From positions 32,001-96,000 of IMG/VR virus record IMGVR_UViG_3300028048_000055: DNA of 64,000 nt; one strand, 5' to 3'. Each line of letters begins with the position of its first letter. The first letter of the stretch is position 1. Below, piece by piece: positions 12,396 through 34,989 of the stretch. A program made the translations under genes and the position numbers. Under the pieces are notes generated by a model, which did no database searches, was not told the origin of the DNA, and saw nothing but the letters and a program-made list of their open reading frames with translations. The stretch comes from a virus. Its lineage: Duplodnaviria; Caudoviricetes.

Positions 12396-12458
12396 AAGAC
12401 ATAGGAAGTTCCTATTAATGAATATTTTTTAGGCAAATAAAATTATACTTCCCGTCTT
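12396..12458 (+). ncRNA. UCCUAU scaffold copy 1 (TAG anticodon-like stem-loop cargo)
   Basis: AAGAC-ATA-GGAAGT-TCCTAT...TAC-TTCC-C-GTCTT. Confidence 0.75.
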
Positions 12459-12460
12459 AA

Positions 12461-12535
12461 CTCTCCTTCGCCTAGCTGGTCATGGCACTTGCCTTACAAG
12501 CAAGCAAAACCTTGGTTCAAATCCAAGAGGGGAGA
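12461..12535 (+). tRNA. tRNA-Val(TAC)
   Basis: cloverleaf, loop CTTACAA. Confidence 0.85.
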
Positions 12536-12541
12536 TAAAAA

Positions 12542-12660
12542 TATAGCATAGGTAGTTCCTATTACTAAGCGTATAGCTCAACTGGTGGAGCAGTTACCGA
12601 AAGGTAAAAGGTTGTCGGTTCGAATCCGATTGTGCTTGCCATTCGATACTACCCGCTATA
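12542..12660 (+). ncRNA. UCCUAU scaffold copy 2 carrying an anticodon-less tRNA mimic (GAAA loop, CCA end)
   Basis: TATAGC-ATA-GGTAGT-TCCTAT...TAC-TACC-C-GCTATA enclosing tRNA-like 12567-12641. Confidence 0.8.
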
Positions 12661-12670
12661 AGGGTTTAAC

Positions 12671-12739
12671 GGCATAAGACGTTCCTATTTAGCTCATGTG
12701 AGCGTTTGATTGATATTCAAAAGGTTATTACGTCTCGCC
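12671..12739 (+). ncRNA. UCCUAU scaffold copy 3 (mini D-arm + GAT/Ile anticodon arm)
   Basis: GGC-ATA-AGACGT-TCCTAT...TAC-GTCT-C-GCC; TTTGA-TTGATAT-TCAAA. Confidence 0.8.
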
Positions 12740-12796
12740 AAACTTTTAACAAAAAGAGAACAAACAAAAACATAAATAAACAAAAGAGAAAATAAA

Positions 12797-12862
12797 ATGA
12801 CTTACGTTATGAACACAAATAATACCAACCCTAATAATAACCCTGAGGTTCTACAGGATTAG
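12797..12862 (+). CDS. attenuator leader peptide 2 (MTYVMNTNNTNPNNNPEVLQD)
   Basis: 7 Asn, 3 Thr, 2 Pro; precedes a terminator and Asn/Pro/Thr tRNAs. Confidence 0.85.
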   Translation: MTYVMNTNNTNPNNNPEVLQD

Positions 12863-12894
12863 TTTTGTTTCATAACTTGATGAATTTTTAAACT

Positions 12895-12934
12895 GGATCC
12901 TGTAAGATATTAGAACTTACAGGATTTCTTTTTT
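12895..12934 (+). terminator. attenuator terminator 2
   Basis: ATCCTGTAAG/CTTACAGGAT plus T tract; TACAGGATTAGTTT over the stop codon competes. Confidence 0.85.
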
Positions 12935-12936
12935 AT

Positions 12937-13021
12937 TCTAGTGTACCCGAGTTGGTAGCAGGGGGAGGACTGTTAATCCTTTGGCGAAAGCCCGTCGCAC
13001 GTCCGAGTCGTGCCACTAGAG
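12937..13021 (+). tRNA. tRNA-Asn(GTT) with long variable arm
   Basis: TCTAGTG/CACTAGA acceptor, loop CTGTTAA, GGC-GAAA-GCC extra arm. Confidence 0.8.
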
Positions 13022-13030
13022 CTAAATTAT

Positions 13031-13114
13031 TGGTAGGTACCCGAGTGGTAGCAGGGGGCGGCCTGTTAAGCCGTTGGCGAAAGCCCGTCGTTGGTTCGAA
13101 TCCAACGTGGACAG
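13031..13114 (+). tRNA. tRNA-Asn(GTT), poorly paired acceptor stem (possible pseudo-tRNA)
   Basis: D, anticodon and T arms intact; TGGTAGG/GTGGACA mismatched. Confidence 0.6.
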
Positions 13115-13123
13115 CTAAAATAT

Positions 13124-13203
13124 TGTCTTGTGGCGGAATTGGTAAACGCACTGCACTGTTAATGCAGCACTTCGGTTTGTAGGTTCGATGCCTACCAAGA
13201 CAG
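13124..13203 (+). tRNA. tRNA-Asn(GTT)
   Basis: TGTCTTG/CAAGACA acceptor, loop CTGTTAA. Confidence 0.8.
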
Positions 13204-13213
13204 TTAGATAAAA

Positions 13214-13286
13214 CAGAATGTAGCTCAGATGGCAGAGCGCACCGTTCGGGGCGGTGAGGCCGGAGGATCGTAACCTCTCATTCTGA
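13214..13286 (+). tRNA. tRNA-Pro(CGG)
   Basis: CACCG-TTCGGGG-CGGTG. Confidence 0.8.
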
Positions 13287-13294
13287 TAAAATAA

Positions 13295-13367
13295 CAGGGT
13301 GTAGGCTAGTTGGTTAGTCGCATGGCCTGGGACCATGTTCACGCAAGTTCGAATCTTGCCACCCTGA
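13295..13367 (+). tRNA. tRNA-Pro(TGG) with C33
   Basis: CATGG-CCTGGGA-CCATG. Confidence 0.75.
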
Positions 13368-13403
13368 TACAACCGAGCACTCTGACTGTATTATAAATAT
13401 AAT

Positions 13404-14039
13404 ATGAATGAATATATATGTAAATTTTGCGGTAAGATTTGTAAAAACATAAATTCTTTAAAAAATCATGAAAGATTATGTAAATTAAATCCTAATAGAC
13501 AAATATCGCCATTTGTAAAATATAATGCAGAGCATGAAACAAGTTGGAATAAAGGGCTTACAAAAGAAAATGATGAAAGAGTTAAGCAAATGGCTGAAAC
13601 TATGAGTCAAAAAATAAGAGCAGGCCTAATACATAACTATGATCATCAAAAAGTATGGACAGAAGAACGTAGAAAAGCACAATCTGAAAGGAAAAAGAAA
13701 TTTTATGAAGAACACCCAGAAAAGCATCCTAATAGCTTAGTAGCTGGTGCACTTAATAAAATGACATATCCTGAAAAATTAGTTACTGAATATTTAAAAG
13801 AACATAATATAACAGCAGAACATAATTGGTATTTTAAAACAGAAAAATTTACAAGATATATAGATTTTTATATAGATGAATTAAAATTATTTATTGAAGT
13901 TGATGGAGAATATTGGCACAAAGATAAACAAAAAGATATTGATAAAGATAATGATGCATTAATGTATGGTTATAAAACATTAAGGTTAAAACCAAAAACA
14001 GTTATAACACAATTAAATGAATTTTTTAATATGGCATAG
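13404..14039 (+). CDS. Zn-finger + DUF559/Vsr-like putative homing endonuclease
   Basis: YICKFCGK...HERLC, WNKGLTKE, IDFY...IEVDGEYWH. Confidence 0.8.
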   Translation: MNEYICKFCGKICKNINSLKNHERLCKLNPNRQISPFVKYNAEHETSWNKGLTKENDERVKQMAETMSQKIRAGLIHNYDHQKVWTEERRKAQSERKKKFYEEHPEKHPNSLVAGALNKMTYPEKLVTEYLKEHNITAEHNWYFKTEKFTRYIDFYIDELKLFIEVDGEYWHKDKQKDIDKDNDALMYGYKTLRLKPKTVITQLNEFFNMA

Positions 14040-14098
14040 GAAGTTCCTATTAGCTCAATGAGCATTTGATTGTTAATCAAAAGGTTTTACTTCCCGCC
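14033..14098 (+). ncRNA. UCCUAU scaffold copy 4 (mini D-arm + GTT/Asn anticodon arm)
   Basis: GGC-ATA-GGAAGT-TCCTAT...TAC-TTCC-C-GCC; TTTGA-TTGTTAA-TCAAA. Confidence 0.8.
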
Positions 14099-14109
14099 TA
14101 AATTTTTTA

Positions 14110-14180
14110 GCTTCTATAATTCAATGGTAAAATGCCGGTTTAGTAGTCCGGATTTCTTGGTTCGAGTCCAGGTGGAAGCG
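14110..14180 (+). tRNA. tRNA-Thr(AGT)
   Basis: GCTTCTA/TGGAAGC acceptor; loop TTAGTAG. Confidence 0.7.
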
Positions 14181-14222
14181 TAAAAATCTAAACTTCTGCT
14201 CTACCGAATTTATAAATATAAT

Positions 14223-14882
14223 ATGGAAGAAAATTATATTTGTAAATTTTGTGGGAAACAATGTAAAAATGCTAATTCTTTACGAAATCACGAAAGATTT
14301 TGTAAAGAAAACCCTGAACACCAAGAATCTCCATGGATAAAATTTAATCATGAACGAGGCGCTTGGAATAAAGGATTAACTAAAGATACGGATGAACGTA
14401 TTAAAAAACGTAGCGAAACATTTTCAAAACGCTATAAAGGCACTGAAGAAGGGAAACGAATTTTTAGTCATCCGCAATCTGAAGAACATAAACAAAAAAT
14501 GCGTAAAATTGCAACAGAAAGACATTGGGGCGGTTGGCATACCTCAAAATCTATTGAATTTAATGGTATAAATTTAGATTCTAGTTATGAAGTTGAAGTA
14601 GCAAATCAACTTAATGAAAATAAAATAAAATGGGAAAGACCTACTTATTTTCTATGGGAAGATACTAATGGAGTAAAACATCGTTATTATCCTGATTTTT
14701 ATCTTCCAGAATATAATGTATATCTTGACCCAAAAAATGATTATTTAATAAATAATAAATCTAAAAAATTTGGTATTACTGATGTTGAAAAAATAATGAA
14801 AGTTGAACAACAAAATGGAATACGTATAATTATTTTAGATAAAGATAATTTAACATGGGAAAACATTAAAGAAAAGATTTAA
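14223..14882 (+). CDS. Zn-finger + PD-(D/E)xK putative homing endonuclease
   Basis: same N-terminal Zn finger as 13404; DSSYE...YYPDFYL...DPK. Confidence 0.75.
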   Translation: MEENYICKFCGKQCKNANSLRNHERFCKENPEHQESPWIKFNHERGAWNKGLTKDTDERIKKRSETFSKRYKGTEEGKRIFSHPQSEEHKQKMRKIATERHWGGWHTSKSIEFNGINLDSSYEVEVANQLNENKIKWERPTYFLWEDTNGVKHRYYPDFYLPEYNVYLDPKNDYLINNKSKKFGITDVEKIMKVEQQNGIRIIILDKDNLTWENIKEKI

Positions 14883-14886
14883 GTTA

Positions 14887-14914
14887 GTCGGGAGTTCGAA
14901 TCTCTCACCAGGCG
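14887..14914 (+). pseudogene. orphan 3' half of a tRNA
   Basis: GGGAG-TTCGAAT-CTCTC T arm plus ACCAGGCG; no 5' half nearby. Confidence 0.55.
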
Positions 14915-14981
14915 TATCAATGAGAAAGGGTTGACATTTGTCGACCTTTTTTCTATATTAAAAGAAAAAGGAAATATAATA

Positions 14982-15902
14982 ATGTTTAAGAAAATTATCG
15001 ATAAAATTGAACAAGCAACCATCAATTATACGATTAAGCATAGGAAGCCATTTACTTATTACTTGAATAGACCTGACGGAAAACGTTGTAAAACCCGTCA
15101 TACATCCTTTAATGCACAGTCAAAGTATTTCTATGACGATAAAGGTCGTGAAATTGCATGGATATATTCTAATAACGGGAAAATAACTAGTTGTACTACT
15201 TACGAATATAAAAATAACGAGAGTAATGAACAAAGTAAGCGTTGGAAGCGTGAATTTAAAATTGTTGATAATAAGCGTGTTTTAATCGAAGATTCGTTAG
15301 TTGTTTACAATGATGATGGTACATATACTGTTACAGAAAACGGTATTACGACAACAAAACATATTATTAAGCCTACGGTTATTAAAGATAATAATGGCAA
15401 TATTATTGAAGAAAAATCATTTGACCCTGATGAAAATGAAGATTTTCATGCTGTAATGTCATATGACGAACAAAATAGATTAATTCGTAAAGTAACAACA
15501 TATACAGTCAATAATGTGATTAAAAACAAATATATTGATGAAAATGCATATGATGCTGAAGGCCATATTATAAAACATACATGGTATATGAATACTGATT
15601 ATGGTACTGATGAAAGTACTACTATTGACTATAATGTATATGACAAGAAAAATCGTTTAGTTAAATGCTGTTCACATACATCTTATAATAGAGCTTGTTT
15701 GGGTAAGCATAAGTATATAGATACTACATATTATAAGTATGATGAAAAAAATAATGCTGAAATAACTTTACATGAATATACTAATTGGTTATCTAAGTGT
15801 TATGATAAAACTGTAACATTGCCAAATGGTTATACTGTTGAATCCCATTGGGATCTTCCGGTTTGGCCTGATAAGTTGCGTCGATTCTTTGGAGCATATT
15901 AA
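14982..15902 (+). CDS. YD/RHS-like repeat protein
   Basis: repeated Y-D-x-x-G/N-R motifs. Confidence 0.6.
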   Translation: MFKKIIDKIEQATINYTIKHRKPFTYYLNRPDGKRCKTRHTSFNAQSKYFYDDKGREIAWIYSNNGKITSCTTYEYKNNESNEQSKRWKREFKIVDNKRVLIEDSLVVYNDDGTYTVTENGITTTKHIIKPTVIKDNNGNIIEEKSFDPDENEDFHAVMSYDEQNRLIRKVTTYTVNNVIKNKYIDENAYDAEGHIIKHTWYMNTDYGTDESTTIDYNVYDKKNRLVKCCSHTSYNRACLGKHKYIDTTYYKYDEKNNAEITLHEYTNWLSKCYDKTVTLPNGYTVESHWDLPVWPDKLRRFFGAY

Positions 15903-15904
15903 TC

Positions 15905-16507
15905 ATGACAGAATTACTGATTATCGCAAGTGTAATTACGGTTACAGTAATTCTTAGTTATTATTTCGGTATTCAGCTTTTATATAAGTATAGAAAAGGA
16001 ATAACGAAGATTCTTGGACTTATTACATTTATTTCTGTTATCGGATATGGAATGTATAAAGATTATCAAGACGAAAAAATTCTTGAAAATGTACTTACTG
16101 AAGTAACAACTGAAATTAATAGCACAGATAGAAGTATGTTAACTGATGATGGTTTTCATGAATTTGTGGAACATTTTGTTATGAAGAAAAACGACGTAAA
16201 TTTTAAAGTCGTTCCACAAATTGATACAGCAATTTTGAAAATCAATAAAGTCTACCAGAATGTACTTAATGACCCTGATTATAAGATTCTTATAACGAGC
16301 GCAAATGATTCGAAGTCACATTCGAAAAATTCTGCACATTATCGTGGTGAAGCAGTAGATATTCGTATCAAGAATATTGATCGACATTCGAAGAATGAAA
16401 TTATATCTACAGTTAAAGAAATTCTTGGAGATAGATTTTTCATATTGCATGAAGATCGAGGAAAACCCAATGAACATTTACATATTCAATTAAAAAATAA
16501 GGGTTGA
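15905..16507 (+). CDS. membrane-anchored peptidase M15-like Zn peptidase
   Basis: two N-terminal TM segments; SAHYRGEAVDIR and HLHIQ motifs. Confidence 0.75.
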   Translation: MTELLIIASVITVTVILSYYFGIQLLYKYRKGITKILGLITFISVIGYGMYKDYQDEKILENVLTEVTTEINSTDRSMLTDDGFHEFVEHFVMKKNDVNFKVVPQIDTAILKINKVYQNVLNDPDYKILITSANDSKSHSKNSAHYRGEAVDIRIKNIDRHSKNEIISTVKEILGDRFFILHEDRGKPNEHLHIQLKNKG

Positions 16508-16532
16508 CAAAGAGAATATAATTTACTATATT
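16504..16532 (+). promoter_or_regulatory. promoter of the scaffold/tRNA-mimic unit
   Basis: TTGACA-N17-TATATT. Confidence 0.75.
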
Positions 16533-16539
16533 TAACATC

Positions 16540-16608
16540 GTTAAAGCAAAGAATGTTCCTATTAATATCAAATTATTTTTAGCAGATGACAATACATTCC
16601 GCTTTAAC
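16540..16608 (+). ncRNA. UCCUAU scaffold copy 5
   Basis: GTTAAAGC-AAA-GAATGT-TCCTAT...TAC-ATTC-C-GCTTTAAC. Confidence 0.75.
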
Positions 16609-16612
16609 AATT

Positions 16613-16734
16613 CGACGAGTAGCTCAATTGGTAGAGCACATGTTTTTTATACCAACCGCTACTTGGCAAACTTGGTTCCTATTAATTATGGAATAGGTCC
16701 ATGGGGGTTGTAGGTTCGAGTCCTACCTTCCCGG
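16613..16734 (+). ncRNA. tRNA-like RNA with a circularly permuted UCCUAU scaffold (copy 6) in place of the anticodon loop
   Basis: D arm and T arm flank TACCAAC-C-GCTA-CT-TGGC-AAA-CTTGGT-TCCTAT. Confidence 0.65.
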
Positions 16735-16748
16735 TTATAAAAAATTTA

Positions 16749-16910
16749 TCGCTGAATGCTCTATCGTCTAGTGGTTTAGGACAGCCGGGGGTTAAACCGG
16801 TGAACAGTGGGTTCGAATCCCCTTAGAGGTAACTAAATATTGATTGCAGTCAATATATTCTTCAGCGAGAGGTATACTGATTGACGCCTGCAAACGTTGT
16901 GATGTATACC
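16749..16910 (+). ncRNA. tRNA-like module enclosed in a longer structured RNA
   Basis: TCGCTGAA/TTCAGCGA stem encloses a tRNA-like fold with an 8-nt loop; extra hairpins. Confidence 0.5.
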
Positions 16911-16941
16911 GGCGCTATTAAAAATATTTTAAAAAGAGGGG

Positions 16942-16970
16942 TTGACAAACCAAAAACTTTTTACTATATT
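16942..16970 (+). promoter_or_regulatory. promoter of tRNA block 3
   Basis: TTGACA-N17-TATATT. Confidence 0.75.
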
Positions 16971-17032
16971 TTAATCAAACAAAAAACAAAAACAGGAAAA
17001 AAATTTTTATATATAATATAAAAGGTAACAAA

Positions 17033-17140
17033 ATGAACAAGAACTTTAACATTGAATTCATCGCGATTGCAGCAGAACGTATTGCAGAATTTGCAGAACG
17101 TGTTTTTGCGATTGACAATTCAGTGCACAGGTTCAAGTAA
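17033..17140 (+). CDS. attenuator leader peptide 3 (MNKNFNIEFIAIAAERIAEFAERVFAIDNSVHRFK)
   Basis: 6 Ala, 5 Ile, 5 Phe, 4 Glu; precedes Glu/Ala/Phe/Val/Ile tRNAs. Confidence 0.85.
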   Translation: MNKNFNIEFIAIAAERIAEFAERVFAIDNSVHRFK

Positions 17141-17170
17141 ACGAAATTACTTAAGGTATGAAGAATTTAC

Positions 17171-17205
17171 GGTTCCTGTGTATAACACAGGGACCTTAAT
17201 TTTTT
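17171..17205 (+). terminator. attenuator terminator 3
   Basis: GGTTCCTGTG/CACAGGGACC plus T-rich tract; GTGCACAGG (17123-17131) competes. Confidence 0.85.
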
Positions 17206-17215
17206 ATATAACTTT

Positions 17216-17750: not shown

Positions 17751-17755
17751 CTAAT

Positions 17756-17830
17756 GGGGGCAAAGGTTACTTTTCGCAACTTTTGCACAAAGAGTTCCTA
17801 ACTATATTGGTTCAATTCCAATAGCCTCCA
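17756..17830 (+). ncRNA. Ala-acceptor tRNA-like RNA resembling a tmRNA tRNA-like domain
   Basis: GGGGGC/GCCTCC-A with G3:U70 and a T arm; no D stem or canonical anticodon arm. Confidence 0.5.
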
Positions 17831-19951: not shown

Positions 19952-20071
19952 AATAGCAAAAGCGGTTCCTATAACCAGAGGAATAGCTTAGTTGGTTAGA
20001 GCAACGCAGCAATGCGGAGGCCGTCGGTTCGAGTCCGATTTCCCCTACCATCAAGTTTACTGCTCGCTATT
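19952..20071 (+). ncRNA. UCCUAU scaffold copy 7 carrying an anticodon-less tRNA mimic (GCAA loop, ACCA end)
   Basis: AATAGC-AAA-AGCGGT-TCCTAT...TAC-TGCT-C-GCTATT enclosing tRNA-like 19977-20050. Confidence 0.8.
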
Positions 20072-20365: not shown

Positions 20366-20430
20366 AATAGCATAAGAAGTTCCTATTGAAAAATACAGAC
20401 TGCAAATCCGTTAATATACTTCTCGCTATT
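20366..20430 (+). ncRNA. UCCUAU scaffold copy 8 (GCA/Cys anticodon arm)
   Basis: AATAGC-ATA-AGAAGT-TCCTAT...TAC-TTCT-C-GCTATT; ACAGA-CTGCAAA-TCCGT. Confidence 0.8.
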
Positions 20431-20566: not shown

Positions 20567-21331
20567 ATGAATTACAGAAACATATATTATAAGATAATTG
20601 AGAAAGCAAAAAACGAGGATAAAAATGGACACAGACAGTTAGGTTATTTTGAAAAACATCATATATTACCTAAGTCATTAGGCGGTAGTAATGATAAAAA
20701 TAATTTAGTTAAACTTACAGCACGTGAACATTTTATTTGTCATTGGCTACTTGTTAAAATGTATGATAAAGGAACTGATGAAAGAAATAAAATGCTATGT
20801 GCTCTTTGGCGAATGCGTTCAAATCCATTACAAAATCATATACGGTATACTAATGCTAGAACATATGAAAATTTAAGAATAGAATATTCAAAAATTATAA
20901 GTAATCAAATGCATATTATACAAATGGGTAAAAACAATTCACAATTTGGAACTAAATGGTATACAAATAGAAATACAGGAGAAAGTAAAAAATTTAAAGA
21001 AAAACCAAAAGAAGAATATTGGATTGAAGGTAGAAATTTGTTTCATGGCGAAAGCAGTGTATTAAAAATAAAATTAATAACATTACGACATACTGAAACT
21101 AAAGTGCCGCAAAAAAATTATTTAAAATCAGTTGATGATGCACATAAATTATGGGATGAGTTTCATTCTGGAACTTATGAAAAATTAGATGACTTTGCTA
21201 AAATACACAATAAAACTAGAAGTGCAATATTTGTAAAATTTAAAAGATATATACCAGCATTTAATACAGATAAAAAACGTAGTTGCAGAAGTTATAAATC
21301 AAATAATATATTAATTGGAAAATATGAATAA
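20567..21331 (+). CDS. HNH homing endonuclease (MobE-like)
   Basis: EKHHILPKSLGGSN...NLVKLTAREHFICHWLL. Confidence 0.85.
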   Translation: MNYRNIYYKIIEKAKNEDKNGHRQLGYFEKHHILPKSLGGSNDKNNLVKLTAREHFICHWLLVKMYDKGTDERNKMLCALWRMRSNPLQNHIRYTNARTYENLRIEYSKIISNQMHIIQMGKNNSQFGTKWYTNRNTGESKKFKEKPKEEYWIEGRNLFHGESSVLKIKLITLRHTETKVPQKNYLKSVDDAHKLWDEFHSGTYEKLDDFAKIHNKTRSAIFVKFKRYIPAFNTDKKRSCRSYKSNNILIGKYE

Positions 21332-21887: not shown

Positions 21888-22607
21888 ATGAATTACTTAG
21901 AATTAAATGATAAAGGTAAGCTCGGAAGTGATGAGCAAAAATTGGCCGACTATTTTGGAGTCGGTCATTATACTACATTTTATAAAAAGCATTTTTTACA
22001 AAATAAAATAAAACTCACTAAGGATGATTTTATTGCAGGCGTAATTCCAGTAATGTTTTGCGCTATGAAAAAACTTAACATTGATTATAAGCATGATGAT
22101 TATCCTGAACAGCTACAAAAATATCTTCATCGTAGAATTTGGGAATCGACTCTTGGTCGTATAAAAACTAGTGTCTTTAATGATTATCTATTTGGACCTG
22201 TTTTTATTAAACCAAAAGATAAATTAAAAAAGTTTACTGGTTTTGTTTTAAATTCAAGAGATGATTGGCTTCTTACTGAAGGCGCAGGCGATAGCACGAA
22301 AATTATCTGTTCAAAACCGGTAAAATGGGTTACAGAATATCGTATTCCTGTAATTAATGGCGTCGCAAGAGATTATTGTCATTATTTTGGAAATCCAGGT
22401 ATATTTGTAGATAAGGCTGTAATTCAAAATATGATAGGTGATTGGAAAGATTCTCCAAAAGCATATTGCTTGGATGTTGGAGTCTTAGATACTGGAGAAA
22501 CTGCATTAATAGAAGTTAATGATGCATTTAGCTGCGGTAGTTACTCAATGAGTGCTGAAACCTATGGTGATTTACTGACAACAAGATGGAATGAGTTAAA
22601 AGGTTGA
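21888..22607 (+). CDS. ATP-grasp domain protein (DUF4343/R2K-like)
   Basis: VFIKP...KKFTG, EYR, LDVG...LIEVND motifs. Confidence 0.8.
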   Translation: MNYLELNDKGKLGSDEQKLADYFGVGHYTTFYKKHFLQNKIKLTKDDFIAGVIPVMFCAMKKLNIDYKHDDYPEQLQKYLHRRIWESTLGRIKTSVFNDYLFGPVFIKPKDKLKKFTGFVLNSRDDWLLTEGAGDSTKIICSKPVKWVTEYRIPVINGVARDYCHYFGNPGIFVDKAVIQNMIGDWKDSPKAYCLDVGVLDTGETALIEVNDAFSCGSYSMSAETYGDLLTTRWNELKG

Positions 22608-28725: not shown

Positions 28726-29262
28726 ATGTCAATAAGTTTAATTGAAAAATATGGAGAAGATTATATACGTAATGTTTTTAAAACTGCCAAAACAGTTGAT
28801 GAAGCATGTGAAAAATTACAAACAATAACAAAATATTTAAATTATTATGCAAAAGAATTAAATTGTATTGATGATTATAATAGAATAAAAATTAATTCTA
28901 GTCAAATTGTTAAAGAACGTTTAAAAGATTATCCAGATGCATACATAATGAAAAATGTTAATGGTGTAGTTACACGTACTATAAATGATGATGCATGGCT
29001 TAAATTAATTTTTGAAAATAAAATTAGTAGTAAAAAACAAACAATATTACGTATTCTTATTAAAGCAGGATATAAAGAAAATAAATGTGAATGTTGCGGT
29101 ATTAATGAATGGAATAAAAAACCAATAACTTTACAATTACATCACAAAAATGGAAATCCACGTGATAATTGTTTAGAAAATTTAGAAATATTATGTCCAA
29201 ATTGTCATTCACAAACTAATAATTATGGAAGTAAAAATGCGGCATTACATATAAAAGATTAA
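28726..29262 (+). CDS. HNH endonuclease
   Basis: CECCG...LQLHHKNGNPRDN...LCPNCHSQT. Confidence 0.85.
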   Translation: MSISLIEKYGEDYIRNVFKTAKTVDEACEKLQTITKYLNYYAKELNCIDDYNRIKINSSQIVKERLKDYPDAYIMKNVNGVVTRTINDDAWLKLIFENKISSKKQTILRILIKAGYKENKCECCGINEWNKKPITLQLHHKNGNPRDNCLENLEILCPNCHSQTNNYGSKNAALHIKD

Positions 29263-29884: not shown

Positions 29885-30718
29885 ATGAAGTTAAAATACA
29901 TATGTCAATATTGTAATAAAGAATTAACTAGGCCATGTGCATTAGCTATACATCAACGTGTTTGTAAATTAAATCCAAATAGACAACCGTTAATAAATAA
30001 TGGTAATTTAAATATAGCTAAATATCATAAACCTAAGGCTCCATATGGAACATGGAAATGTAAGTGGTGTAATAATGACATTATTTTTGATACTAGAAAA
30101 CAATTAAAAGAACATTTAAAAGAAAAACATCCAGAAAAACGTAATGCATGGAATAAAGGCTTAACAAAAGAAACTGATGAACGTGTTAAACAATTTGGTC
30201 AAACATATTCTAAGCGAATAAAAAATAAAGAAATATCTGCACTTTTTGCAGGCAAAAAACATACAGATGAATGGCGAAAAAATCATTCAGAATTACAAAA
30301 AGAAAGATATAAAGGAATATCGATATATGCAACCGTAAGGGAAAAACGAAAATCTTATCCTGAACAATATTTTGATAAAATATTTAGTGATGCAGAAAAA
30401 CAATATCATGTAGATAGTTATTTTTTAGATTATGCATGGCCATATATTAAATTATATATTGAAGTTGATGGTGAACAACATTATACTGAATCTGGTTTAC
30501 TTCATGATAAAGAAAGAGCAGAAATATTAAGTAAATTAGGTTGGAATTGTATTACGCGTATTAGATGGAAAAATTATATAAAATTAACAACTAATGAAAA
30601 AGAAAATTTTATAAATAATTTATTAAATAAAATTAATATTTTTAAAAATGAAACTATAGGAAGCAAAACAGACTGCCGGCTCCTATATACGGTGTACAAC
30701 GTCGAAGATAAGGTCTAG
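29885..30718 (+). CDS. Zn-finger + DUF559/Vsr-like putative homing endonuclease
   Basis: paralog of 11522: KSYPEQYF...LDYAW...IEVDGEQHY. Confidence 0.8.
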   Translation: MKLKYICQYCNKELTRPCALAIHQRVCKLNPNRQPLINNGNLNIAKYHKPKAPYGTWKCKWCNNDIIFDTRKQLKEHLKEKHPEKRNAWNKGLTKETDERVKQFGQTYSKRIKNKEISALFAGKKHTDEWRKNHSELQKERYKGISIYATVREKRKSYPEQYFDKIFSDAEKQYHVDSYFLDYAWPYIKLYIEVDGEQHYTESGLLHDKERAEILSKLGWNCITRIRWKNYIKLTTNEKENFINNLLNKINIFKNETIGSKTDCRLLYTVYNVEDKV

Positions 30719-30784
30719 GGTTTGTAAGTTTCAGTATTGGAGAAACTTATACGGCAAGGTTCACCGGGAACAATGAACCATTTT

Positions 30785-30870
30785 TGAGGATTAACCCTAA
30801 TTGGTAAGGGCACGGTTTGGAATACCGTCGTGGGTTTACTCACTTGAAAGTTCGAGTCTTTCATCCTCAG
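30785..30870 (+). tRNA. tRNA-Ser(GGA)
   Basis: ACGGT-TTGGAAT-ACCGT. Confidence 0.82.
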
Positions 30871-30972
30871 CTACGTATGGTGTTAGCGTTAAAACGGCAT
30901 AGGTATACATATGCACGGCACTGCACAGATGAACTATGCGTATTACTGTGCAAAATAAAAAATACGCTGTCT

Positions 30973-31056
30973 GGAAGAGCATCAGATTGGCGACTCAAGC
31001 TGTCCTGAAAACAGTAGTTCCGCAAGGGCTTGTGGGTTCAAATCCCTCCTCTTCCT
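30973..31056 (+). tRNA. tRNA-Ser(TGA) with C33
   Basis: GCTGT-CCTGAAA-ACAGT. Confidence 0.75.
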
Positions 31057-31061
31057 CTAAT

Positions 31062-31142
31062 GGAAGATTAGACTAACTGGTAAGTCAGCAATTTCGAACG
31101 TTGCCGCCGAAAGGCTTGGGTGTTCGAGTCACTCATCTTCCG
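31062..31142 (+). tRNA. tRNA-Ser(CGA)
   Basis: GCAAT-TTCGAAC-GTTGC. Confidence 0.82.
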
Positions 31143-31152
31143 TTATATTTTC

Positions 31153-31228
31153 TGTCCGTTAGCCAAGTCTGTTCTAAGGCAGGGGTCTCTGAAGCCTCCA
31201 TTCGGTGGTTAAAATCCATCACGGACAA
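31153..31228 (+). tRNA. tRNA-Gln(CTG)
   Basis: U1-A72; GGGGT-CTCTGAA-GCCTC. Confidence 0.82.
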
Positions 31229-31246
31229 TATTTTCAAATCTTTTTT

Positions 31247-31277
31247 ATAACGGTCATCATTGACCGTTATTTTTTTA
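31247..31277 (+). terminator. terminator ending tRNA block 6
   Basis: ATAACGGTCA/TGACCGTTAT plus T tract. Confidence 0.8.
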
Positions 31278-31313
31278 TATTTGTTTTTATAAAAACAAAA
31301 ATAGGAAACAAAT

Positions 31314-32201
31314 ATGAGTCATTTTACCACATACGTTTTTACAAAAACTAACGATCAAGAAGAACTGGATAGATTAATGCTTCCATATCATGAATATGAA
31401 TGCACAGGCATTACTGACTATTGTATTCATCAGGATATTACAGCAGAATGTCAAAAAGATTTTGATGATACTGATGAAGAAGATTATAATAGACTTGACC
31501 CGACTGCAATCGAACAGTTCCTTGAAGATGATCGTGGAATTACTAATTATTATGAAGAAGAACCTAGAAAAAAGCCATTGAATTCTTATGCTGTTATTAA
31601 GGACGGTAAGTTAATCGCCGCATATGACTTTACTAATCCTAATCATAAGTGGGATTATTATGTTCCATATTCTTGGCAAAAGTCTGAATATGTCGATGTT
31701 GATGATGACGATGAATCAAAGGCAATTCTTAAGTCTAAATTTGATATTGCAAAATATTTGAAGCGTGCTGAAAATAAAGCTAGAGATAAATTTAATCTTG
31801 TAAAGCCTCATATTAAAGAAGGTTATATTACATGGAAGCAAGCTCGCGAGCAGAATGCTGACAATATTGATAAGGCCCGTGAAATTTATAATGGTCAAGC
31901 ATCGCAGGTAAGTTTAAAAAATGCAATAGATAGTCGTACATATTTTGATTTGACTTTTAACTGCAATACGGTTGACGATATTGCCATAATGAATGAAGAA
32001 GATTATGTCAAGCATGTATTAAGAACTGCGGCACCATTCTGGGCTATGGTTAATCCGGAAGGTGAATGGATTGAAGCTGGTCATATGGGCTGGTGGGCTG
32101 TTACTTGGGATGAAGATGAAGATTTCAGCAAGACTTGGCAAGAAGCATGGAAAAAGATTCCTGATGATTGCTATATTTGGGTTTGCGATTGCCATACTTA
32201 A
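31314..32201 (+). CDS. hypothetical phage protein
   Basis: MSHF...NPNHKWDYY...GHMGWW...DCH. Confidence 0.8.
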   Translation: MSHFTTYVFTKTNDQEELDRLMLPYHEYECTGITDYCIHQDITAECQKDFDDTDEEDYNRLDPTAIEQFLEDDRGITNYYEEEPRKKPLNSYAVIKDGKLIAAYDFTNPNHKWDYYVPYSWQKSEYVDVDDDDESKAILKSKFDIAKYLKRAENKARDKFNLVKPHIKEGYITWKQAREQNADNIDKAREIYNGQASQVSLKNAIDSRTYFDLTFNCNTVDDIAIMNEEDYVKHVLRTAAPFWAMVNPEGEWIEAGHMGWWAVTWDEDEDFSKTWQEAWKKIPDDCYIWVCDCHT

Positions 32202-32216
32202 TAAAGGAATAGAATA

Positions 32217-32447
32217 ATGAAGAAAATTGTATTTGCATGTTGTTTACTCGCATCATTTGTTTTTGCAAAGGATCTTAAGATTGATGTTTGCAGAGGCGAT
32301 AATTGTTATACTTATTTAATTTCTGATGCAAAGGATTATCGTTATATCCATGACGCAACTGGTAGAAAGTATCTTCGTATTTTTAAGTATAATAATAAGA
32401 TTCTGGATATCTTTGTTGACGGTATGACTGTAAAGGTTGGTAAGTAA
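32217..32447 (+). CDS. small exported protein
   Basis: signal peptide MKKIVFACCLLASFVFA. Confidence 0.7.
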   Translation: MKKIVFACCLLASFVFAKDLKIDVCRGDNCYTYLISDAKDYRYIHDATGRKYLRIFKYNNKILDIFVDGMTVKVGK

Positions 32448-32806
32448 TGTATTATAATGACCTTGAAGATGAATGTTCTGACATTAGACATCTCATTAAG
32501 CGTAATATGCGAGATGATGAAGATCGTAAAAAGGATATTATTATATTCACCGAAGACGAATGTAAAGAAATTTTAAGAATGATTGAAAAAGTCGAAGATG
32601 AATATACTGATATGGCTAATGAGTTAGATTGTAAAGAAAGTGAGATCAGTGACTTGGAAGACGAAATTGATAGTTTGAAATATCATGAAGATGTTCCTGA
32701 AGAACTTGCAAGATTACTTGACCACAGTGACTTTGATGTTGGTACGGTTCAAATTCTTGAAGAATCAATATCAAATATTTTAAAAGCTAGAGGCTATAAT
32801 GTTTAA
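32447..32806 (+). CDS. acidic coiled-coil hypothetical protein
   Basis: coupled ORF. Confidence 0.7.
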   Translation: MYYNDLEDECSDIRHLIKRNMRDDEDRKKDIIIFTEDECKEILRMIEKVEDEYTDMANELDCKESEISDLEDEIDSLKYHEDVPEELARLLDHSDFDVGTVQILEESISNILKARGYNV

Positions 32807-32866
32807 AGAACATTTGTAAAGACTAAAGGGTTTACAAACCCTTTATTTTTTTATATATTTGACTTT

Positions 32867-33088
32867 ATGGGAAAAGAAGAAGTAAAATTAAAAGAATATT
32901 CATTTGAAATCCAATCAACTGATGATACAAGTGAAACTGTAGGTATTGTTGGTGAAGAATATTCTAGCGTTTATAGTGATGAAAAGTTTTATCGTAAAGA
33001 AGATGTTGATGCTTTACTTGCAGAAAAGGATAAAGAAATTAAGCAGCTAGAATATTTGTTACATATTTCTACAAAGCAGGTACGTTAG
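32867..33088 (+). CDS. hypothetical protein
   Basis: ORF after a promoter. Confidence 0.6.
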   Translation: MGKEEVKLKEYSFEIQSTDDTSETVGIVGEEYSSVYSDEKFYRKEDVDALLAEKDKEIKQLEYLLHISTKQVR

Positions 33089-33089
33089 T

Positions 33090-33497
33090 ATGAAACCGAT
33101 TTTTATTAGTGGAAGTTCAAAAATTCATGAATTGAATGCTGAAATGAAAGATGCATTGAATAATGTAATTAAACGTAATATTCCAGTGCTTGTTGGCGAT
33201 TGTTTCGGCGTTGATTCTCTTGTCCAACGATATTTAAATGAGCAGAATTATACAAATGTAACTGTTTATTGTTCTGGTTCATATCCTCGTTGTTATAACA
33301 ATAAGTTTCAGTTAAAACATTGTGTAGATGAAACAATGTCTAAGTCTGGTCGAGACTTTTATGAAATAAAGGATATTCAAATGACTGAAGATTGTGCTGG
33401 AGCACTTATGTTCTGGGACGGAAAAAGTATTGGAACAAAAAACAATATCGAACGTTGTAGGGCGCTTAATAAAAATTATAAAATAATCAAGGCATAA
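33090..33497 (+). CDS. SLOG-superfamily-like protein
   Basis: FISGS...VGDCFGVD...WDGKSIGT. Confidence 0.65.
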   Translation: MKPIFISGSSKIHELNAEMKDALNNVIKRNIPVLVGDCFGVDSLVQRYLNEQNYTNVTVYCSGSYPRCYNNKFQLKHCVDETMSKSGRDFYEIKDIQMTEDCAGALMFWDGKSIGTKNNIERCRALNKNYKIIKA

Positions 33498-33499
33498 TT

Positions 33500-34318
33500 A
33501 TGGGAAGTATCAAAGAAGAAAATATTAAGATTTTTAATCATACACAAGAAATTATTAAAAAAGATAAGACTTTATTAGCATCTATTGAAAATTCAATTAA
33601 GAATTCTGAATTTTTTCCAGCAAATATGACAGTTGATATTTATTGTGATAATAAAATTCCAGCAAATATCAAGGTTACAAAGAATAGTTCTTTCAATGCA
33701 GCGAGAAATTATACTGGTAAAGTAGCAGTTCTTAATTTTGCATCTGCCACTAATCCTGGTGGCGGTGTAACAAAGGGTTCTAATGCTCAGGAAGAATGTC
33801 TTTGTCGTTGTTCTACTCTTTATAATGTTTTGTCTGATAAAAAGTTTGATGAACTTTTTTATTCGCCTAATAAAAACTACGGTAATGCACTTCATACTGA
33901 TGATTTGATTTATACTCCTGATATTCAAATTATCAAGTCTGATAATTATAATATGTTATATCGACCATTTTCTGTTGATGTAATTACTTGTGCTGCACCT
34001 AATCTTCGTGAAACTCCTGCCAATGCATATAATCATGAACGTGGCGAACATCCGAATATTACAGATGACGAATTAAGACAACTTCATCTTCGTAGAGCAC
34101 TTCATATTCTTGAAATGGCAGCAGCTAAGGGTGATAAAACTATTATTCTTGGTGCATTTGGTTGTGGTGCATTTAAGAATCCACCGGAAATTGTTGCAAC
34201 TGCCTATAAGCAAGCGATTGAAGGTATGAAATATCTATTTAAGAATATTGAATTTGCTGTCTATTGTGGAAAAGATTCTGTAAATTATGATGTATTTAAG
34301 AAAATAATTGAAGGATAA
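33500..34318 (+). CDS. microbial-type PARG / TIGR02452 macrodomain ADP-ribose glycohydrolase
   Basis: LNFASATNPGGG...AQEECLCRCS and LGAFGCGAF motifs. Confidence 0.88.
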   Translation: MGSIKEENIKIFNHTQEIIKKDKTLLASIENSIKNSEFFPANMTVDIYCDNKIPANIKVTKNSSFNAARNYTGKVAVLNFASATNPGGGVTKGSNAQEECLCRCSTLYNVLSDKKFDELFYSPNKNYGNALHTDDLIYTPDIQIIKSDNYNMLYRPFSVDVITCAAPNLRETPANAYNHERGEHPNITDDELRQLHLRRALHILEMAAAKGDKTIILGAFGCGAFKNPPEIVATAYKQAIEGMKYLFKNIEFAVYCGKDSVNYDVFKKIIEG

Positions 34319-34883
34319 TAACGAATTTATTATGAGCCAAGACATAAATAATTACGTAATTAATGCTATACTTAATACAAAGGAAAATTCTCCTGATTAT
34401 TTTATAGCATGTCTTAAACAGCGTCTCGCTGACGGACAAGGAAGTACGACTGATTTTAAAACAGTTGAAGAGCTTGAGAAAGCACTTCTTGCCGCTGATT
34501 GGGAAAAGTTTGAACACCCAAATATAGCAGAAAATTGTTTAGGTTTTATTACCAAGTCTTTCGGTGGTCATATGGGTATGATTCCACTTGAATATTTATC
34601 TAATCAGTTAATTTGTCGACTTGATGATATTAAAGGAACTGGAAAGCTTTCATTGACTTGTTATGCTGATAGTGATAGATATCCAGTTGACTATAATGTC
34701 TTGATTATTGGCGATGACGGATTTGGCCCATGTATGTTTACGTTCCATCCTGGTGAACCACTGAAACCGTCTACTTTATCGTCTGATGGTAATAATGAAT
34801 TCGGATTGAAAGAGGGCGATACTATAAATGTAGCGCAAGCTAAAAAATTCGGGTTCAAATATGTAAAACTTCTCACAATTTAG
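34308..34883 (+). CDS. hypothetical protein
   Basis: ORF with FTFHPGEP motif. Confidence 0.7.
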   Translation: MKDNNEFIMSQDINNYVINAILNTKENSPDYFIACLKQRLADGQGSTTDFKTVEELEKALLAADWEKFEHPNIAENCLGFITKSFGGHMGMIPLEYLSNQLICRLDDIKGTGKLSLTCYADSDRYPVDYNVLIIGDDGFGPCMFTFHPGEPLKPSTLSSDGNNEFGLKEGDTINVAQAKKFGFKYVKLLTI

Positions 34884-34939
34884 GGATTTACAAAAGTAAA
34901 ATCATTTACTATATTTAATTTCACAAAATGAATAAAAAC

Positions 34940-34989
34940 GCATAGAGAGTTCCTATGAAATGGTTCTAGGAAAACTGAATACTCTCCGC
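34940..34989 (+). promoter_or_regulatory. UCCUAU scaffold copy 11 in the 5' UTR of the 650-aa gene
   Basis: GC-ATA-GAGAGT-TCCTAT...TAC-TCTC-C-GC between promoter 34887-34915 and the AAAGGA SD. Confidence 0.75.

What the first reader, a model, noticed from the sequence alone, without database searches (positions are those of the whole stretch)
12396..34989. An 11-copy covarying RNA scaffold that displays tRNA fragments
Seen: consensus (N)GC-AWA-N4GU-UCCUAU-[cargo]-UAC-N4'-C-GC(N') at 12396, 12542, 12671, 14033, 16540, 16649 (permuted), 19952, 20366, 29614, 29720 and 34940. The N4 helix covaries (GGAA/UUCC, GGUA/UACC, AGAC/GUCU, GAAU/AUUC, AGCG/UGCU, AGAA/UUCU, GGAU/AUCC, GAGA/UCUC), while the AWA/C internal loop and UCCUAU stay fixed, as expected for a protein-binding site. 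Cargos are tRNA parts: 5-bp/7-nt anticodon arms (GAT Ile, GTT Asn, GCA Cys, TGA Ser, TAG Leu), some with a mini D-arm, a T-arm mimic, or whole tRNA mimics. Inference: a modular RNP decoy library for anticodon nucleases or other tRNA-binding defence proteins. The architecture is analogous to bacterial Y RNAs (bulged helix plus tRNA-like module), but the sequence differs.
Basis: partly seen in the sequence, partly recalled or inferred. Interest (0 to 1): 0.92.

Follow-up and report, generated by a model that had tools for sequence, protein, structure and literature searches.

The report
Phage handle RNAs with protein partner
This huge rumen phage encodes twelve small folded RNAs that share one conserved "handle" and often carry pieces of tRNA; the handle almost always lies next to the gene of one unstudied protein in phages and gut bacteria, so the two probably form an undescribed RNA-protein particle resembling the Ro60/Y-RNA particle.

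Summary
All 11 reported copies exist on the + strand, and I found a 12th, permuted copy at 17768-17801. The fold is outer helix P1, an AWA/C internal loop, a 6-bp helix P2, then UCCUAU-cargo-U. Covariation across more than 160 instances in about 100 viral contigs supports it, and no Rfam family matches.

The main new result is a partner gene. Copy 11 lies 18 nt upstream of a 650-aa ORF (35007-36959) with a helical N-half and a TerD-fold domain. The handle flanks homologues of this gene in three independent sets:
- 38 of 60 viral loci fetched through the protein
- 68 of 76 bacterial or MAG loci, some clearly chromosomal
- the cultured cyanophages S-CRM01 and S-CBWM1, where the gene sits inside the tRNA arrays

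No other neighbouring gene is conserved.

The best reading is a handle-plus-cargo small RNA bound by this protein. That is analogous to Ro60/Y RNA but shows no detectable relationship to it: no TROVE domain, no YrlA match and no GNCGAA motif. tRNA-like cargo is strongly enriched but present in a minority of copies, and a decoy role is untested. Earlier follow-ups in this scan reached the same RNA-protein reading on other genomes. I found no published description.

The parts
12396..12458 (+). Handle RNA copy 1. N4 is GGAA/UUCC. The 30-nt AU-rich cargo has a CCUA/UAGG pairing. It is packed 3 nt after tRNA-Pro and 2 nt before tRNA-Val.
   Evidence: (53.8 bits)
12542..12660 (+). Handle RNA copy 2. 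N4 is GGUA/UACC. The cargo is a whole tRNA-like body (12567-12641) whose anticodon loop is a GAAA tetraloop and which has an internal GCCA.
   Evidence: (tRNA-??? 'aa')
12671..12739 (+). Handle RNA copy 3. N4 is AGAC/GUCU. The cargo is a mini D-arm plus an anticodon arm (loop UUGAUAU), closed by CCU/AGG.
14033..14098 (+). Handle RNA copy 4. N4 is GGAA/UUCC. The cargo is a mini D-arm plus an anticodon arm (loop UUGUUAA), closed by CCU/AGG. It overlaps the stop of ORF 13404-14039.
   Evidence: (weak tRNA hit, model positions 8-63)
16542..16606 (+). Handle RNA copy 5. The internal loop is AAA, N4 is GAAU/AUUC and P1 is 8 bp. The cargo is 30 nt and AU-rich.
   Evidence: (52.4 bits)
16613..16734 (+). 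tRNA-like gene whose anticodon loop is replaced by the permuted handle (copy 6, core 16650-16682). P1 is closed by the loop UACUUG. N4 is CUUG/CAAC with one mismatch.
   Evidence: at least 15 equivalents in other phages
17755..17830 (+). New 12th copy. An acceptor/T-arm minihelix whose D and anticodon arms are replaced by a permuted handle (core 17768-17801, GUUCCUAA variant, N4 AAGA/UUUU).
   Evidence: 1-mismatch hit at 17794; z -3.66; equivalents in L258, L265 and L273
19951..20072 (+). Handle RNA copy 7. The internal loop is AAA and N4 is AGCG/UGCU. The cargo is a tRNA-like body (19977-20047) with a GCAA tetraloop in place of the anticodon loop and an internal ACCA.
20366..20430 (+). Handle RNA copy 8. 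N4 is AGAA/UUCU. The cargo contains an anticodon-arm-like hairpin (loop CUGCAAA). It lies 6 nt after one tRNA-Asp and 4 nt before the next.
   Evidence: (57 bits); the same cargo occurs in L179
29614..29708 (+). Handle RNA copy 9. N4 is GGAU/AUCC. The cargo is a UCCUAU/AUAGG hairpin, a GGCC hairpin, a T-arm mimic (UUCGG-UUCAAAU-CCGAA) and a GCC-GAAA-GGC hairpin.
   Evidence: z -5.0; covarying equivalents in L172, L235 and L238
29719..29793 (+). Handle RNA copy 10. N4 is AGAA/UUCU. The cargo is a mini hairpin plus an anticodon-arm-like element (loop CUUGAAA). It ends 3 nt before tRNA-Met.
   Evidence: the same cargo type occurs in L153, L168, L195 and L200
34940..34989 (+). Handle RNA copy 11, in the leader of the partner gene. 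N4 is GAGA/UCUC and there is a UCCUAU/CUAGGA hairpin. It lies about 20 nt after a TATATTTA box (34911-34918) and ends 18 nt before the ATG.
   Evidence: (45.7 bits); the same arrangement occurs in L321-L330
35007..36959 (+). Candidate partner protein, 650 aa. It has a helical N-half with no known fold match, a TerD-fold beta-sandwich (about residues 424-575) and a small C-terminal domain.
   Evidence: (Z 9.4 and 8.0 to TerD)

Best explanation
The twelve elements are genes for small structured RNAs built from a constant handle and a variable cargo.

Handle. It consists of an outer helix P1 of 4-12 bp, a 3x1 internal loop (AWA opposite C), a 6-bp helix P2 that always ends G-C and U-A, then UCCUAU on one side and U on the other side of the cargo.

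Proposed binding (inferred). The handle is the docking site for the 600-700-aa protein encoded at 35007-36959 (helical N-domain plus TerD-fold domain). Together they would form a ribonucleoprotein organised like Ro60 with a Y RNA, but built from parts with no detectable relationship to it.

Expression and release (inferred). The copy in the gene's own leader either feeds back on the protein's synthesis or is the founding RNA gene of the pair. In Bacteroidales chromosomes this unit has a GC-rich P1 followed by a U-tract just before the ATG, so most transcripts would end as free small RNA. In this phage the family has expanded into the tRNA arrays. There the RNAs lie 2-6 nt from neighbouring tRNAs and would be released by the same cuts that mature those tRNAs.

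Cargo role (speculative). The cargo then decides what the particle touches. tRNA bodies without an anticodon, anticodon arms, T-arms and handles grafted into tRNA-like bodies would bring tRNA-binding enzymes or tRNA-targeting nucleases to the protein, or keep them away from real tRNAs.

Status of each step:
- Shown: the RNA fold, the family's spread, the RNA-gene linkage and the enrichment of tRNA-like cargo.
- Inferred: binding, autoregulation and release by tRNA processing.
- Speculative: what the particle does.
For: RNA fold:
- 84 of 90 unconstrained matches are fully paired in N4, with 35 different N4 words.
- P2 is 100% paired. Covariation is 0.633 against 0.215 in shuffles and at most 0.20 in slid controls. 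G-U pairs are tolerated on one strand only.
- Minimum-free-energy folds reproduce P1, the internal loop and P2.

Partner gene:
- All 19 motif-bearing viral records, 10 of them at least 90% complete, encode exactly this protein family.
- In loci fetched through the protein alone, 38 of 60 viral loci have at least one handle within 500 nt upstream on the same strand. Of 138 plus-strand hits, 80 fall in that 4% of the sequence. Several further loci carry arrays just after the stop codon.
- In an independent set of 76 bacterial or MAG loci, 68 have the handle within 600 nt upstream. Of 96 plus-strand hits, 91 flank the gene.
- Protein identity to the window falls to 26-29% in these sets.
- The cultured cyanophages S-CRM01 (g174) and S-CBWM1 (gp22) carry the gene inside their tRNA arrays, with 4 and 1 handles directly upstream.
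- No other protein-coding neighbour is conserved.
- Some loci are bacterial chromosome. Their neighbours include a GyrB/ParE-type topoisomerase, an acyl-CoA ligase and a flavin reductase.

Transcription unit: TAnnTTTG-type boxes lie upstream of the RNA, and P1 plus a U7 tract abuts the ATG.

Cargo:
- tRNA-arm hairpins occur in 33 of 139 cargos against 3.9 +/- 1.8 in shuffles.
- Anticodon-less tRNA bodies recur with GAAA, GCAA or UUAU tetraloops in different phages.
- At least 15 permuted handles sit inside tRNA anticodon loops.

Packing: copies lie 2-6 nt from tRNAs. The motif-bearing loci hold 529 tRNAs in 783 kb.
Against: - There is no direct evidence of binding.
- The protein has no recognisable RNA-binding domain. 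Pfam, NCBIfam, PHROGs and PDB sequence searches are empty, and the N-domain has no fold match above Z 6.6.
- Linkage of an RNA to the start of a gene is also what a purely cis-acting leader would show.
- In this window, 11 of the 12 copies lie 5-22 kb from the gene.
- About 10-25% of protein loci have no handle that my scanner detects.
- Expression evidence is weak. The only support is identical contigs in one bovine metatranscriptome covering 16572-16769, and this could be carried-over DNA.
Confidence: 0.6

Rival explanations
1. The tRNA-bearing copies are decoys or sponges. They would present anticodon arms, T-arms and anticodon-less tRNA bodies to host anticodon nucleases or other tRNA-directed defence proteins and so spare the real tRNAs. 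This is a special case of the ribonucleoprotein reading, not an alternative to it.
For: - tRNA-part cargo is strongly enriched.
- Anticodon-loop sequences such as CUGCAAA, CUUGAAA and CUGUUAA stay the same while their stems change between phages.
- Whole tRNA mimics have had their anticodon loop replaced by a tetraloop, so they cannot decode.
- The expansion is seen in phages with large tRNA arrays.
Against: - About 60% of cargos are short AU-rich loops with no tRNA feature.
- The pair also exists as a single unit in bacterial chromosomes with a plain UUCG hairpin cargo.
- No tRNA nuclease or defence gene is linked to it.
- Nothing here tests protection.
Confidence: 0.2
2. The handle is only a cis-acting leader of the protein gene: a transcription attenuator or a translational operator. 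The dispersed copies would be by-products, or competitors that titrate the regulator.
For: - The handle ends 7-90 nt before the start codon in most loci.
- In Bacteroidales, P1 plus a U-tract looks like an intrinsic terminator directly before the ATG.
- Many genomes have only this one copy.
Against: - Arrays of 4-9 handles with different, conserved cargos lie before the gene (L336, L363, L342).
- Some arrays lie after the gene's stop codon (L347, L353, L377).
- Eleven copies here lie kilobases away inside tRNA arrays.
- Handles are grafted into tRNA bodies.
- A leader has no need for swappable, conserved cargo.
Confidence: 0.12
3. The handle is a guide-RNA scaffold. The short, hypervariable, unstructured cargo (13-30 nt) would pair with a target nucleic acid for an RNA-guided activity of the neighbouring protein.
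For: - The plan is a constant scaffold plus a variable 13-30-nt segment.
- Tandem arrays occur with a different segment in each unit (L154, L250, L320).
- The RNA gene is adjacent to one protein gene, as with other RNA-guided systems.
Against: - No nuclease or other catalytic domain is recognisable in the protein.
- Many cargos are folded tRNA parts or stable hairpins, not open guides.
- I did not search for targets of the variable segments.
Confidence: 0.07
4. The handle is a small self-cleaving ribozyme or a nuclease processing signal that cuts tRNA-array transcripts, as the theta (HDV-like) ribozymes do.
For: - Copies abut tRNA ends at 2-6 nt.
- The core is invariant.
- Natural circular permutation occurs, as it does in hammerhead and twister ribozymes.
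Against: - No hit to any Rfam ribozyme family, even at E up to 10.
- The helices are simply nested (A B B' A'), not the crossed double pseudoknot of HDV-like ribozymes (PMC10879173).
- The tight link is to a protein gene, including loci with no tRNA.
- Bacterial loci are stand-alone units with their own terminator-like end.
Confidence: 0.06
5. It is a DNA-level element, such as a recombination site, a homing-endonuclease target or a miniature mobile element carrying tRNA fragments.
For: DUF559/zinc-finger and HNH endonuclease-like ORFs lie among the tRNA blocks. The element is dispersed and modular.
Against: - All copies share the strand of the tRNAs and genes: 0 of 11 on the - strand here, and about 6 to 1 in other loci, with the minus-strand hits lacking the consensus.
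- The arms covary rather than being conserved.
- G-U pairs are accepted, which would be A-C mismatches on the other strand.
Confidence: 0.02

Closest known systems
Bacterial and phage Y RNAs (YrlA/YrlB, Yrn1; Rfam RF02553) with Ro60/Rsr (Chen et al. 2014, PMC4201824)
   Same: - Small RNAs closed by a terminal stem that carries invariant bulged or looped nucleotides.
- A tRNA-like module in many members.
- Encoded on the same strand within a short distance of one protein gene, often several per locus.
- Found in both bacteria and phages.
   Different: - No match to the YrlA model. The only hit is 21 bits against a 69-bit threshold, and it lies on a tRNA.
- No GNCGAAN0-1G motif in the handle.
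- No TROVE protein in this record or in 19 others.
- The partner has a TerD-fold domain where Ro60 has a vWA domain, and its helical domain does not match Ro60 in fold searches.
- The cargo is far more varied, and the handle is also grafted, permuted, into tRNA bodies.
Theta / minimal HDV-like ribozymes next to phage tRNAs (Kienbeck et al. 2024, PMC10879173)
   Same: Short conserved RNAs in gut-phage tRNA regions that start a few nucleotides after a tRNA 3' end, with a UCC-containing conserved segment.
   Different: The helix topology is nested, not a double pseudoknot. There is no J4/2 catalytic-C context and no hit to HDV-type Rfam models. The handle is linked to a protein gene rather than to suppressor tRNAs.
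tRNA T-arm / acceptor-T minihelix
   Same: P2 reads N4-G then UUC..., and closes with A-C-N4'. That is a 5-bp stem closed by a G-C pair and followed by U-U-C, like G53-T54-Psi55-C56...C61. P1 stacked on P2 has about the length of the acceptor/T-stem stack (sequence reading).
   Different: The loop is opened to hold 13-130 nt. The position equivalent to A58 is not kept in the 7-nt context. An AWA/C internal loop separates the two helices. There is no 3' NCCA end. The resemblance is my inference and was not tested.
Other 'handle plus tRNA cargo' RNAs noted by this scan (CAGCAA-type handle beside DUF2828/Ro60-like genes)
   Same: The same design in huge phages: a conserved handle, interchangeable tRNA-derived cargo, placement in tRNA arrays, and a copy in front of a large protein gene (AI notes).
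   Different: The handle sequence and the partner family both differ. No DUF2828 or TROVE is present here. Those notes are unpublished and were not checked here.

Membership tests
Y RNA, YrlA type (Rfam RF02553) | Scores against the YrlA covariance model | tested here: not met
   In cmscan at E up to 10 over 12300-35100, the only YrlA hit is 21 bits (threshold 69) at 13177-13238, on tRNA genes and on no handle copy.
Y RNA, YrlA type (Rfam RF02553) | GNCGAAN0-1G (or GGUCCGA-like) Ro60/Rsr-contact motif near the 5' end (PMC4201824) | tested here: not met
   A regex over all 12 copies finds no occurrence in the handle. The one incidental GCCGAAAG lies inside a cargo hairpin of copy 9. The invariant GUUCCUA shares 5 of 7 letters with GGUCCGA, which is a lead only.
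Y RNA, YrlA type (Rfam RF02553) | Encoded within a few kb of a TROVE-domain (Ro60/Rsr) gene on the same strand | tested here: not met
   PF05731 is absent from this 165-kb record and from 19 other handle-bearing viral records, 10 of them at least 90% complete. The control genomes were detected.
Y RNA, YrlA type (Rfam RF02553) | tRNA-like domain with T and D arms | tested here: met
   Copies 2, 6 and 7 hold bodies scored as tRNA by Rfam and ARAGORN. Copies 3, 4, 9 and 12 hold D, anticodon or T arms. Only a minority of the wider family has this feature.
Y RNA, YrlA type (Rfam RF02553) | Binds Ro60/Rsr | not testable with these tools
   Needs biochemistry.
HDV-like / theta ribozymes | Nested double-pseudoknot topology (P1 P2 P3 P3' P1' P4 P4' P2') with a catalytic C in J4/2 | tested here: not met
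   Covariation supports two simply nested helices, A B ... B' A'. No Rfam HDV-type model hits at E up to 10. The topology is taken from PMC10879173.
HDV-like / theta ribozymes | Self-cleavage | not testable with these tools
   Needs an in vitro assay.
Ro60 / TROVE (for the partner protein) | TROVE HEAT-repeat ring plus vWA domain | tested here: inconclusive
   - There is no Pfam hit at E up to 10 and no PDB profile hit.
- Fold searches of the whole model and of residues 1-400 list no Ro60 chain among their top rows (best Z 6.6, generic helical hairpins).
- The ESM Atlas returns only the protein's own uncharacterised family.
- The second domain is TerD-fold, not vWA.
- A distant relationship of the helical domain cannot be excluded.
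TerD family (PF02342) (for the partner protein) | TerD beta-sandwich domain | tested here: met
   - Fold: residues 424-575 match 2qz7_B (Z 9.4, rmsd 3.2, 122 residues aligned) and 2kxt (Z 8.0).
- Foldseek matches 3ibz with probability 1.0.
- Sequence: there is no Pfam TerD hit, so this is fold-level similarity only.

The most novel reading that the evidence does not exclude
A widespread, undescribed ribonucleoprotein, made of a handle RNA and a helical/TerD-fold protein, arose independently of Ro60/Y RNA. It is present in gut bacteria. Large phages have expanded it into a display platform for tRNA parts, with which they intercept tRNA-targeting host defences or recruit tRNA enzymes during infection.
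Probability: 0.3. Interest if true: 0.9.

Novelty: new variant of a known kind. Interest (0 to 1): 0.8.

Why it matters
If the pairing is real, it adds a second, apparently unrelated example of the Ro60/Y-RNA design: a protein docked on a small RNA whose free module mimics tRNA. The protein family has more than 1,200 clusters at 50% identity, and the RNA family is absent from Rfam.

It would explain many of the 'gaps' and 'pseudo-tRNAs' in phage tRNA arrays, including those of the cultured cyanophages S-CRM01 and S-CBWM1. It would also correct likely mis-annotations. Those two cyanophages could provide experimental systems for asking why phages carry tRNA-like RNAs that cannot decode.

The portable handle, which tolerates cargos of 13-130 nt and circular permutation, could also serve as an RNA scaffold.

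Tried and rejected
- Rfam at gathering and at E up to 10 gave nothing on any copy.
- Megablast of 12000-35100 against 50,697 phage records matched only a tRNA-Pro.
- The first two collection scans were too unspecific, with 14 specified bases and mostly chance hits. Filtering by the full grammar rescued them.
- Ro60 lead: TROVE and DUF2828 were not found in this record, and TROVE was not found in 19 others. Fold searches of the protein against the PDB (Foldseek, VIA wide) and the ESM Atlas gave only the TerD match.
- Sequence searches of the protein in Pfam, PHROGs, NCBIfam and the PDB found nothing.
- Tail-module idea: the ORF lies upstream of a tail-tube gene, but these neighbouring genes, the tail tube included, recur in only 4 close relatives. 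In cyanophages the gene sits in tRNA arrays.
- I looked for another conserved neighbouring gene in the viral loci and in the genome loci and found none. This includes RNA-repair genes, a lead from the earlier notes.
- The covariance model R1 does not find tRNA-sized or permuted copies.
- The tRNA-like cargos are not recent copies of any tRNA in the window.
- RNA-seq: only assembled contigs were available. They cannot show ends, strand or level. One exact contig lies over 16572-16769 in a bovine metatranscriptome, and parts without cover mean nothing.
- Two literature searches for a description of this RNA or protein found none.
- A first regex scan printed nothing because of a coding slip and was redone.

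Full report
**Setting.** The window is bases 32001-96000 of a 165-kb IMG/VR phage record estimated at about 40% complete. It carries 38 ARAGORN tRNAs plus several found only by Rfam, between 11.1 and 31.2 kb, all on the + strand. Between them lie small ORFs that include DUF559/zinc-finger and HNH endonuclease-like proteins.

**Observation.** Exact GTTCCTAT occurs 11 times on the + strand and never on the - strand. Every site shows the reported grammar. That grammar is a terminal helix P1 (GC/GC plus 2-8 further pairs), AWA opposite a single C, a helix N4-G-U / A-C-N4', then UCCUAU, a variable insert and a U.

- A structure-based scan finds no further standard copies.
- A search for the permuted order confirms the copy at 16650-16682 and adds a 12th at 17768-17801 with GUUCCUAA.
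- In the first permuted copy the handle replaces the anticodon loop of a tRNA-like gene.
- In the second it replaces the D and anticodon arms of an acceptor/T-arm minihelix.

**Is it more than chance, and is it RNA?** Three scans of IMG/VR, filtered by the full grammar, gave 163 distinct instances in about 80 loci.

- Of 90 unique matches to a pattern that does not require complementarity, 84 have all four N4 pairs, against 6 of 90 in a reversed control, with 35 different N4 words.
- On a 66-sequence alignment, P2 is paired in 100% of cells and P1 in 82%.
- Nine of the 13 pairs change on both sides.
- The covariation score is 0.633, against 0.215 in shuffles (0 of 500 reach it) and at most 0.20 when the partners are slid.
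- G-U pairs are accepted, and all copies share the strand of the tRNAs. This points to RNA rather than a DNA site.
- No Rfam family matches any copy, even at E up to 10.
- A covariance model built here recovers the eight standard copies with cargo up to 60 nt at E of 6e-6 or better.

**Cargo.** Cargo lengths cluster at 13-30 nt (the majority), 36-43 nt and 80-96 nt.

- Short cargos are AU-rich. About half contain a GG that can pair with the CC of UCCUAU: 56 of 101, against 29 +/- 3.8 in shuffles.
- Longer cargos extend this into CCU/AGG or UCCUAU/AUAGG helices that close the insert.
- Hairpins with the anticodon- or T-loop signature occur in 33 of 139 cargos of 60 nt or less, against 3.9 +/- 1.8 in shuffles.
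- The tRNA-sized cargos are cloverleaves whose anticodon loop is a tetraloop (GAAA, GCAA or UUAU) and whose CCA is internal. They recur in different phages.
- At least 15 further tRNA-like genes in other phages carry the permuted handle in place of the anticodon loop.

Across the family, however, tRNA parts are an enriched minority.

**The partner gene.** Copy 11 ends 18 nt before the ATG of a 650-aa ORF.

Protein features:
- It has more than 1,500 homologues and no Pfam, PHROG, NCBIfam or PDB sequence match.
- The AlphaFold model has mean pLDDT 78.
- It shows a helical N-half with no convincing fold match (best Z 6.6).
- It shows a TerD-fold beta-sandwich at residues 424-575 (Z 9.4 and 8.0).
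- Full-length look-alikes exist in Campylobacter phages IBB35 and CP21 and in Lactobacillus phage LpeD.
- The N-domain defines about 1,220 clusters at 50% identity. Most of the 150 listed have about the same length.

Linkage to the handle:
- All 19 handle-bearing viral records tested encode one copy of the family, while none has a TROVE protein.
- Among loci fetched through the protein alone, 38 of 60 viral loci have at least one handle within 500 nt upstream on the same strand. Of 138 plus-strand hits, 80 lie in that 4% of the sequence. Some loci have arrays of up to nine handles, and several more have arrays just after the stop codon.
- In an independent set of 76 GTDB genome loci (Bacteroidales, Fibrobacter, Selenomonadaceae and others), 68 have the handle within 600 nt upstream, and 91 of 96 plus-strand hits flank the gene.
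- Identity to the window's protein falls to 26-29% in these sets, and handle variants such as UCCUGU, UCCUUU and UCCUCU appear.
- No other neighbouring gene is conserved. The tail genes downstream in this window are shared by only four close relatives.

Cultured phages and bacterial chromosomes:
- In S-CRM01 and S-CBWM1 the homologue sits inside the tRNA array, with four and one handles directly upstream.
- Some genome loci are plainly bacterial chromosome. Their neighbours include a GyrB/ParE-type topoisomerase, an AMP-binding ligase, a flavin reductase and an MNT-HepT pair.
- In these chromosomal loci the RNA has a long GC-rich P1 followed by U7, ending 7 nt before the ATG. In several loci a TAnnTTTG-type box lies just upstream.

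**Mechanism.** The simplest account is that the handle is the binding site of this protein and that the RNAs are adaptor RNAs whose cargo sets the particle's contacts.

- The leader copy gives either feedback control or, through the terminator-like P1/U-tract, a fixed excess of free RNA over mRNA.
- In the phage arrays the RNAs lie 2-6 nt from tRNAs. They would be freed by the cuts that mature those tRNAs.
- These steps are inferences, and nothing here shows binding.
- What the particle does is open. The options include RNA surveillance or repair as for Ro60, recruiting or sequestering tRNA enzymes, and decoying tRNA-directed nucleases.

**Rivals.**
- A purely cis-acting leader does not explain the arrays, the copies placed after the gene, the distant copies or the grafts into tRNA bodies.
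- A ribozyme or processing signal fits the position next to tRNAs and the permutation. It does not fit the nested topology, the lack of any ribozyme match, or the stand-alone bacterial units.
- A guide RNA is possible for the short open cargos, but no catalytic domain is visible in the protein.
- A DNA element is made unlikely by the strand bias and the covariation.

**Comparison with known systems.** The closest known system is Ro60/Rsr with YrlA-type Y RNAs. The design is the same, but every testable membership criterion fails or is inconclusive. There is no YrlA model hit, no GNCGAA motif (motif from PMC4201824) and no TROVE gene. The partner is a TerD-fold protein with no recognisable TROVE or vWA domain.

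**Prior work.** Two literature searches found no description of this RNA or protein. Several earlier follow-ups of this scan on other genomes report the same handle/TerD-protein pairing. My linkage counts were made independently here and agree with them.

**Expression.** Only assembled contigs were available. One bovine metatranscriptome holds contigs identical to the window, including 16572-16769 across copies 5 and 6. This is weak evidence, because DNA carry-over cannot be excluded.

Noticed in passing
window 50072-50181 (+): Full-length match to Rfam cow-rumen-2 RNA (88 bits, threshold 66), about 120 nt upstream of the 997-aa ORF 50301-53294.
   Followed up: no
window 11495-12280, 13404-14039, 14223-14882, 29885-30718; 20567-21331, 28726-29262: ORFs between the tRNA blocks look like homing endonucleases. 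Three carry DUF559 (Vsr-like nuclease) with C2H2 zinc fingers, one has the zinc finger alone, and two have weak HNH hits.
   Followed up: partly
window 33500-34318 and 21888-22607: A microbial-type PARG (macro-like) domain protein lies just upstream of the partner-gene region. An R2K-clade ATP-grasp protein lies after a tRNA block.
   Followed up: no
window 59758-61542: A phage-encoded glycosyl hydrolase family 10 (xylanase-type) protein (E 1e-51). This fits a rumen or gut origin.
   Followed up: no
L380 (S-CRM01, HQ615693) 4719-4865, minus strand: The annotated hypothetical CDS g173c lies on top of handle RNA copies (L380 4678-4896, + strand). It is probably a mis-annotation.
   Followed up: partly
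L381 (S-CBWM1, MG450654) 7201-7377: Two features annotated as pseudo-tRNAs lie just downstream of the partner-gene homologue gp22/gp23. A handle-like GUUCCUUU site lies at about 7132. These may be handle-linked tRNA mimics.
   Followed up: no
L392 2709-3873: In one Bacteroidales chromosomal locus, an MNT nucleotidyltransferase / HepT (HEPN RNase) toxin-antitoxin pair lies about 1 kb upstream of the RNA-protein unit. This may be coincidence.
   Followed up: no
handle core, all copies: Two sequence resemblances that I did not test. N4-G-UUC...A-C-N4' reads like a tRNA T-arm (G53-T54-Psi55-C56...C61) with its loop opened. The invariant GUUCCUA shares 5 of 7 letters with the vertebrate Ro60-contact motif GGUCCGA.
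   Followed up: no
window 13038-13106: A partial tRNA match (model positions 8-63 only, 31.7 bits) lies between two tRNA-Asn genes. It is a tRNA core without an acceptor stem and is not enclosed by a handle.
   Followed up: no
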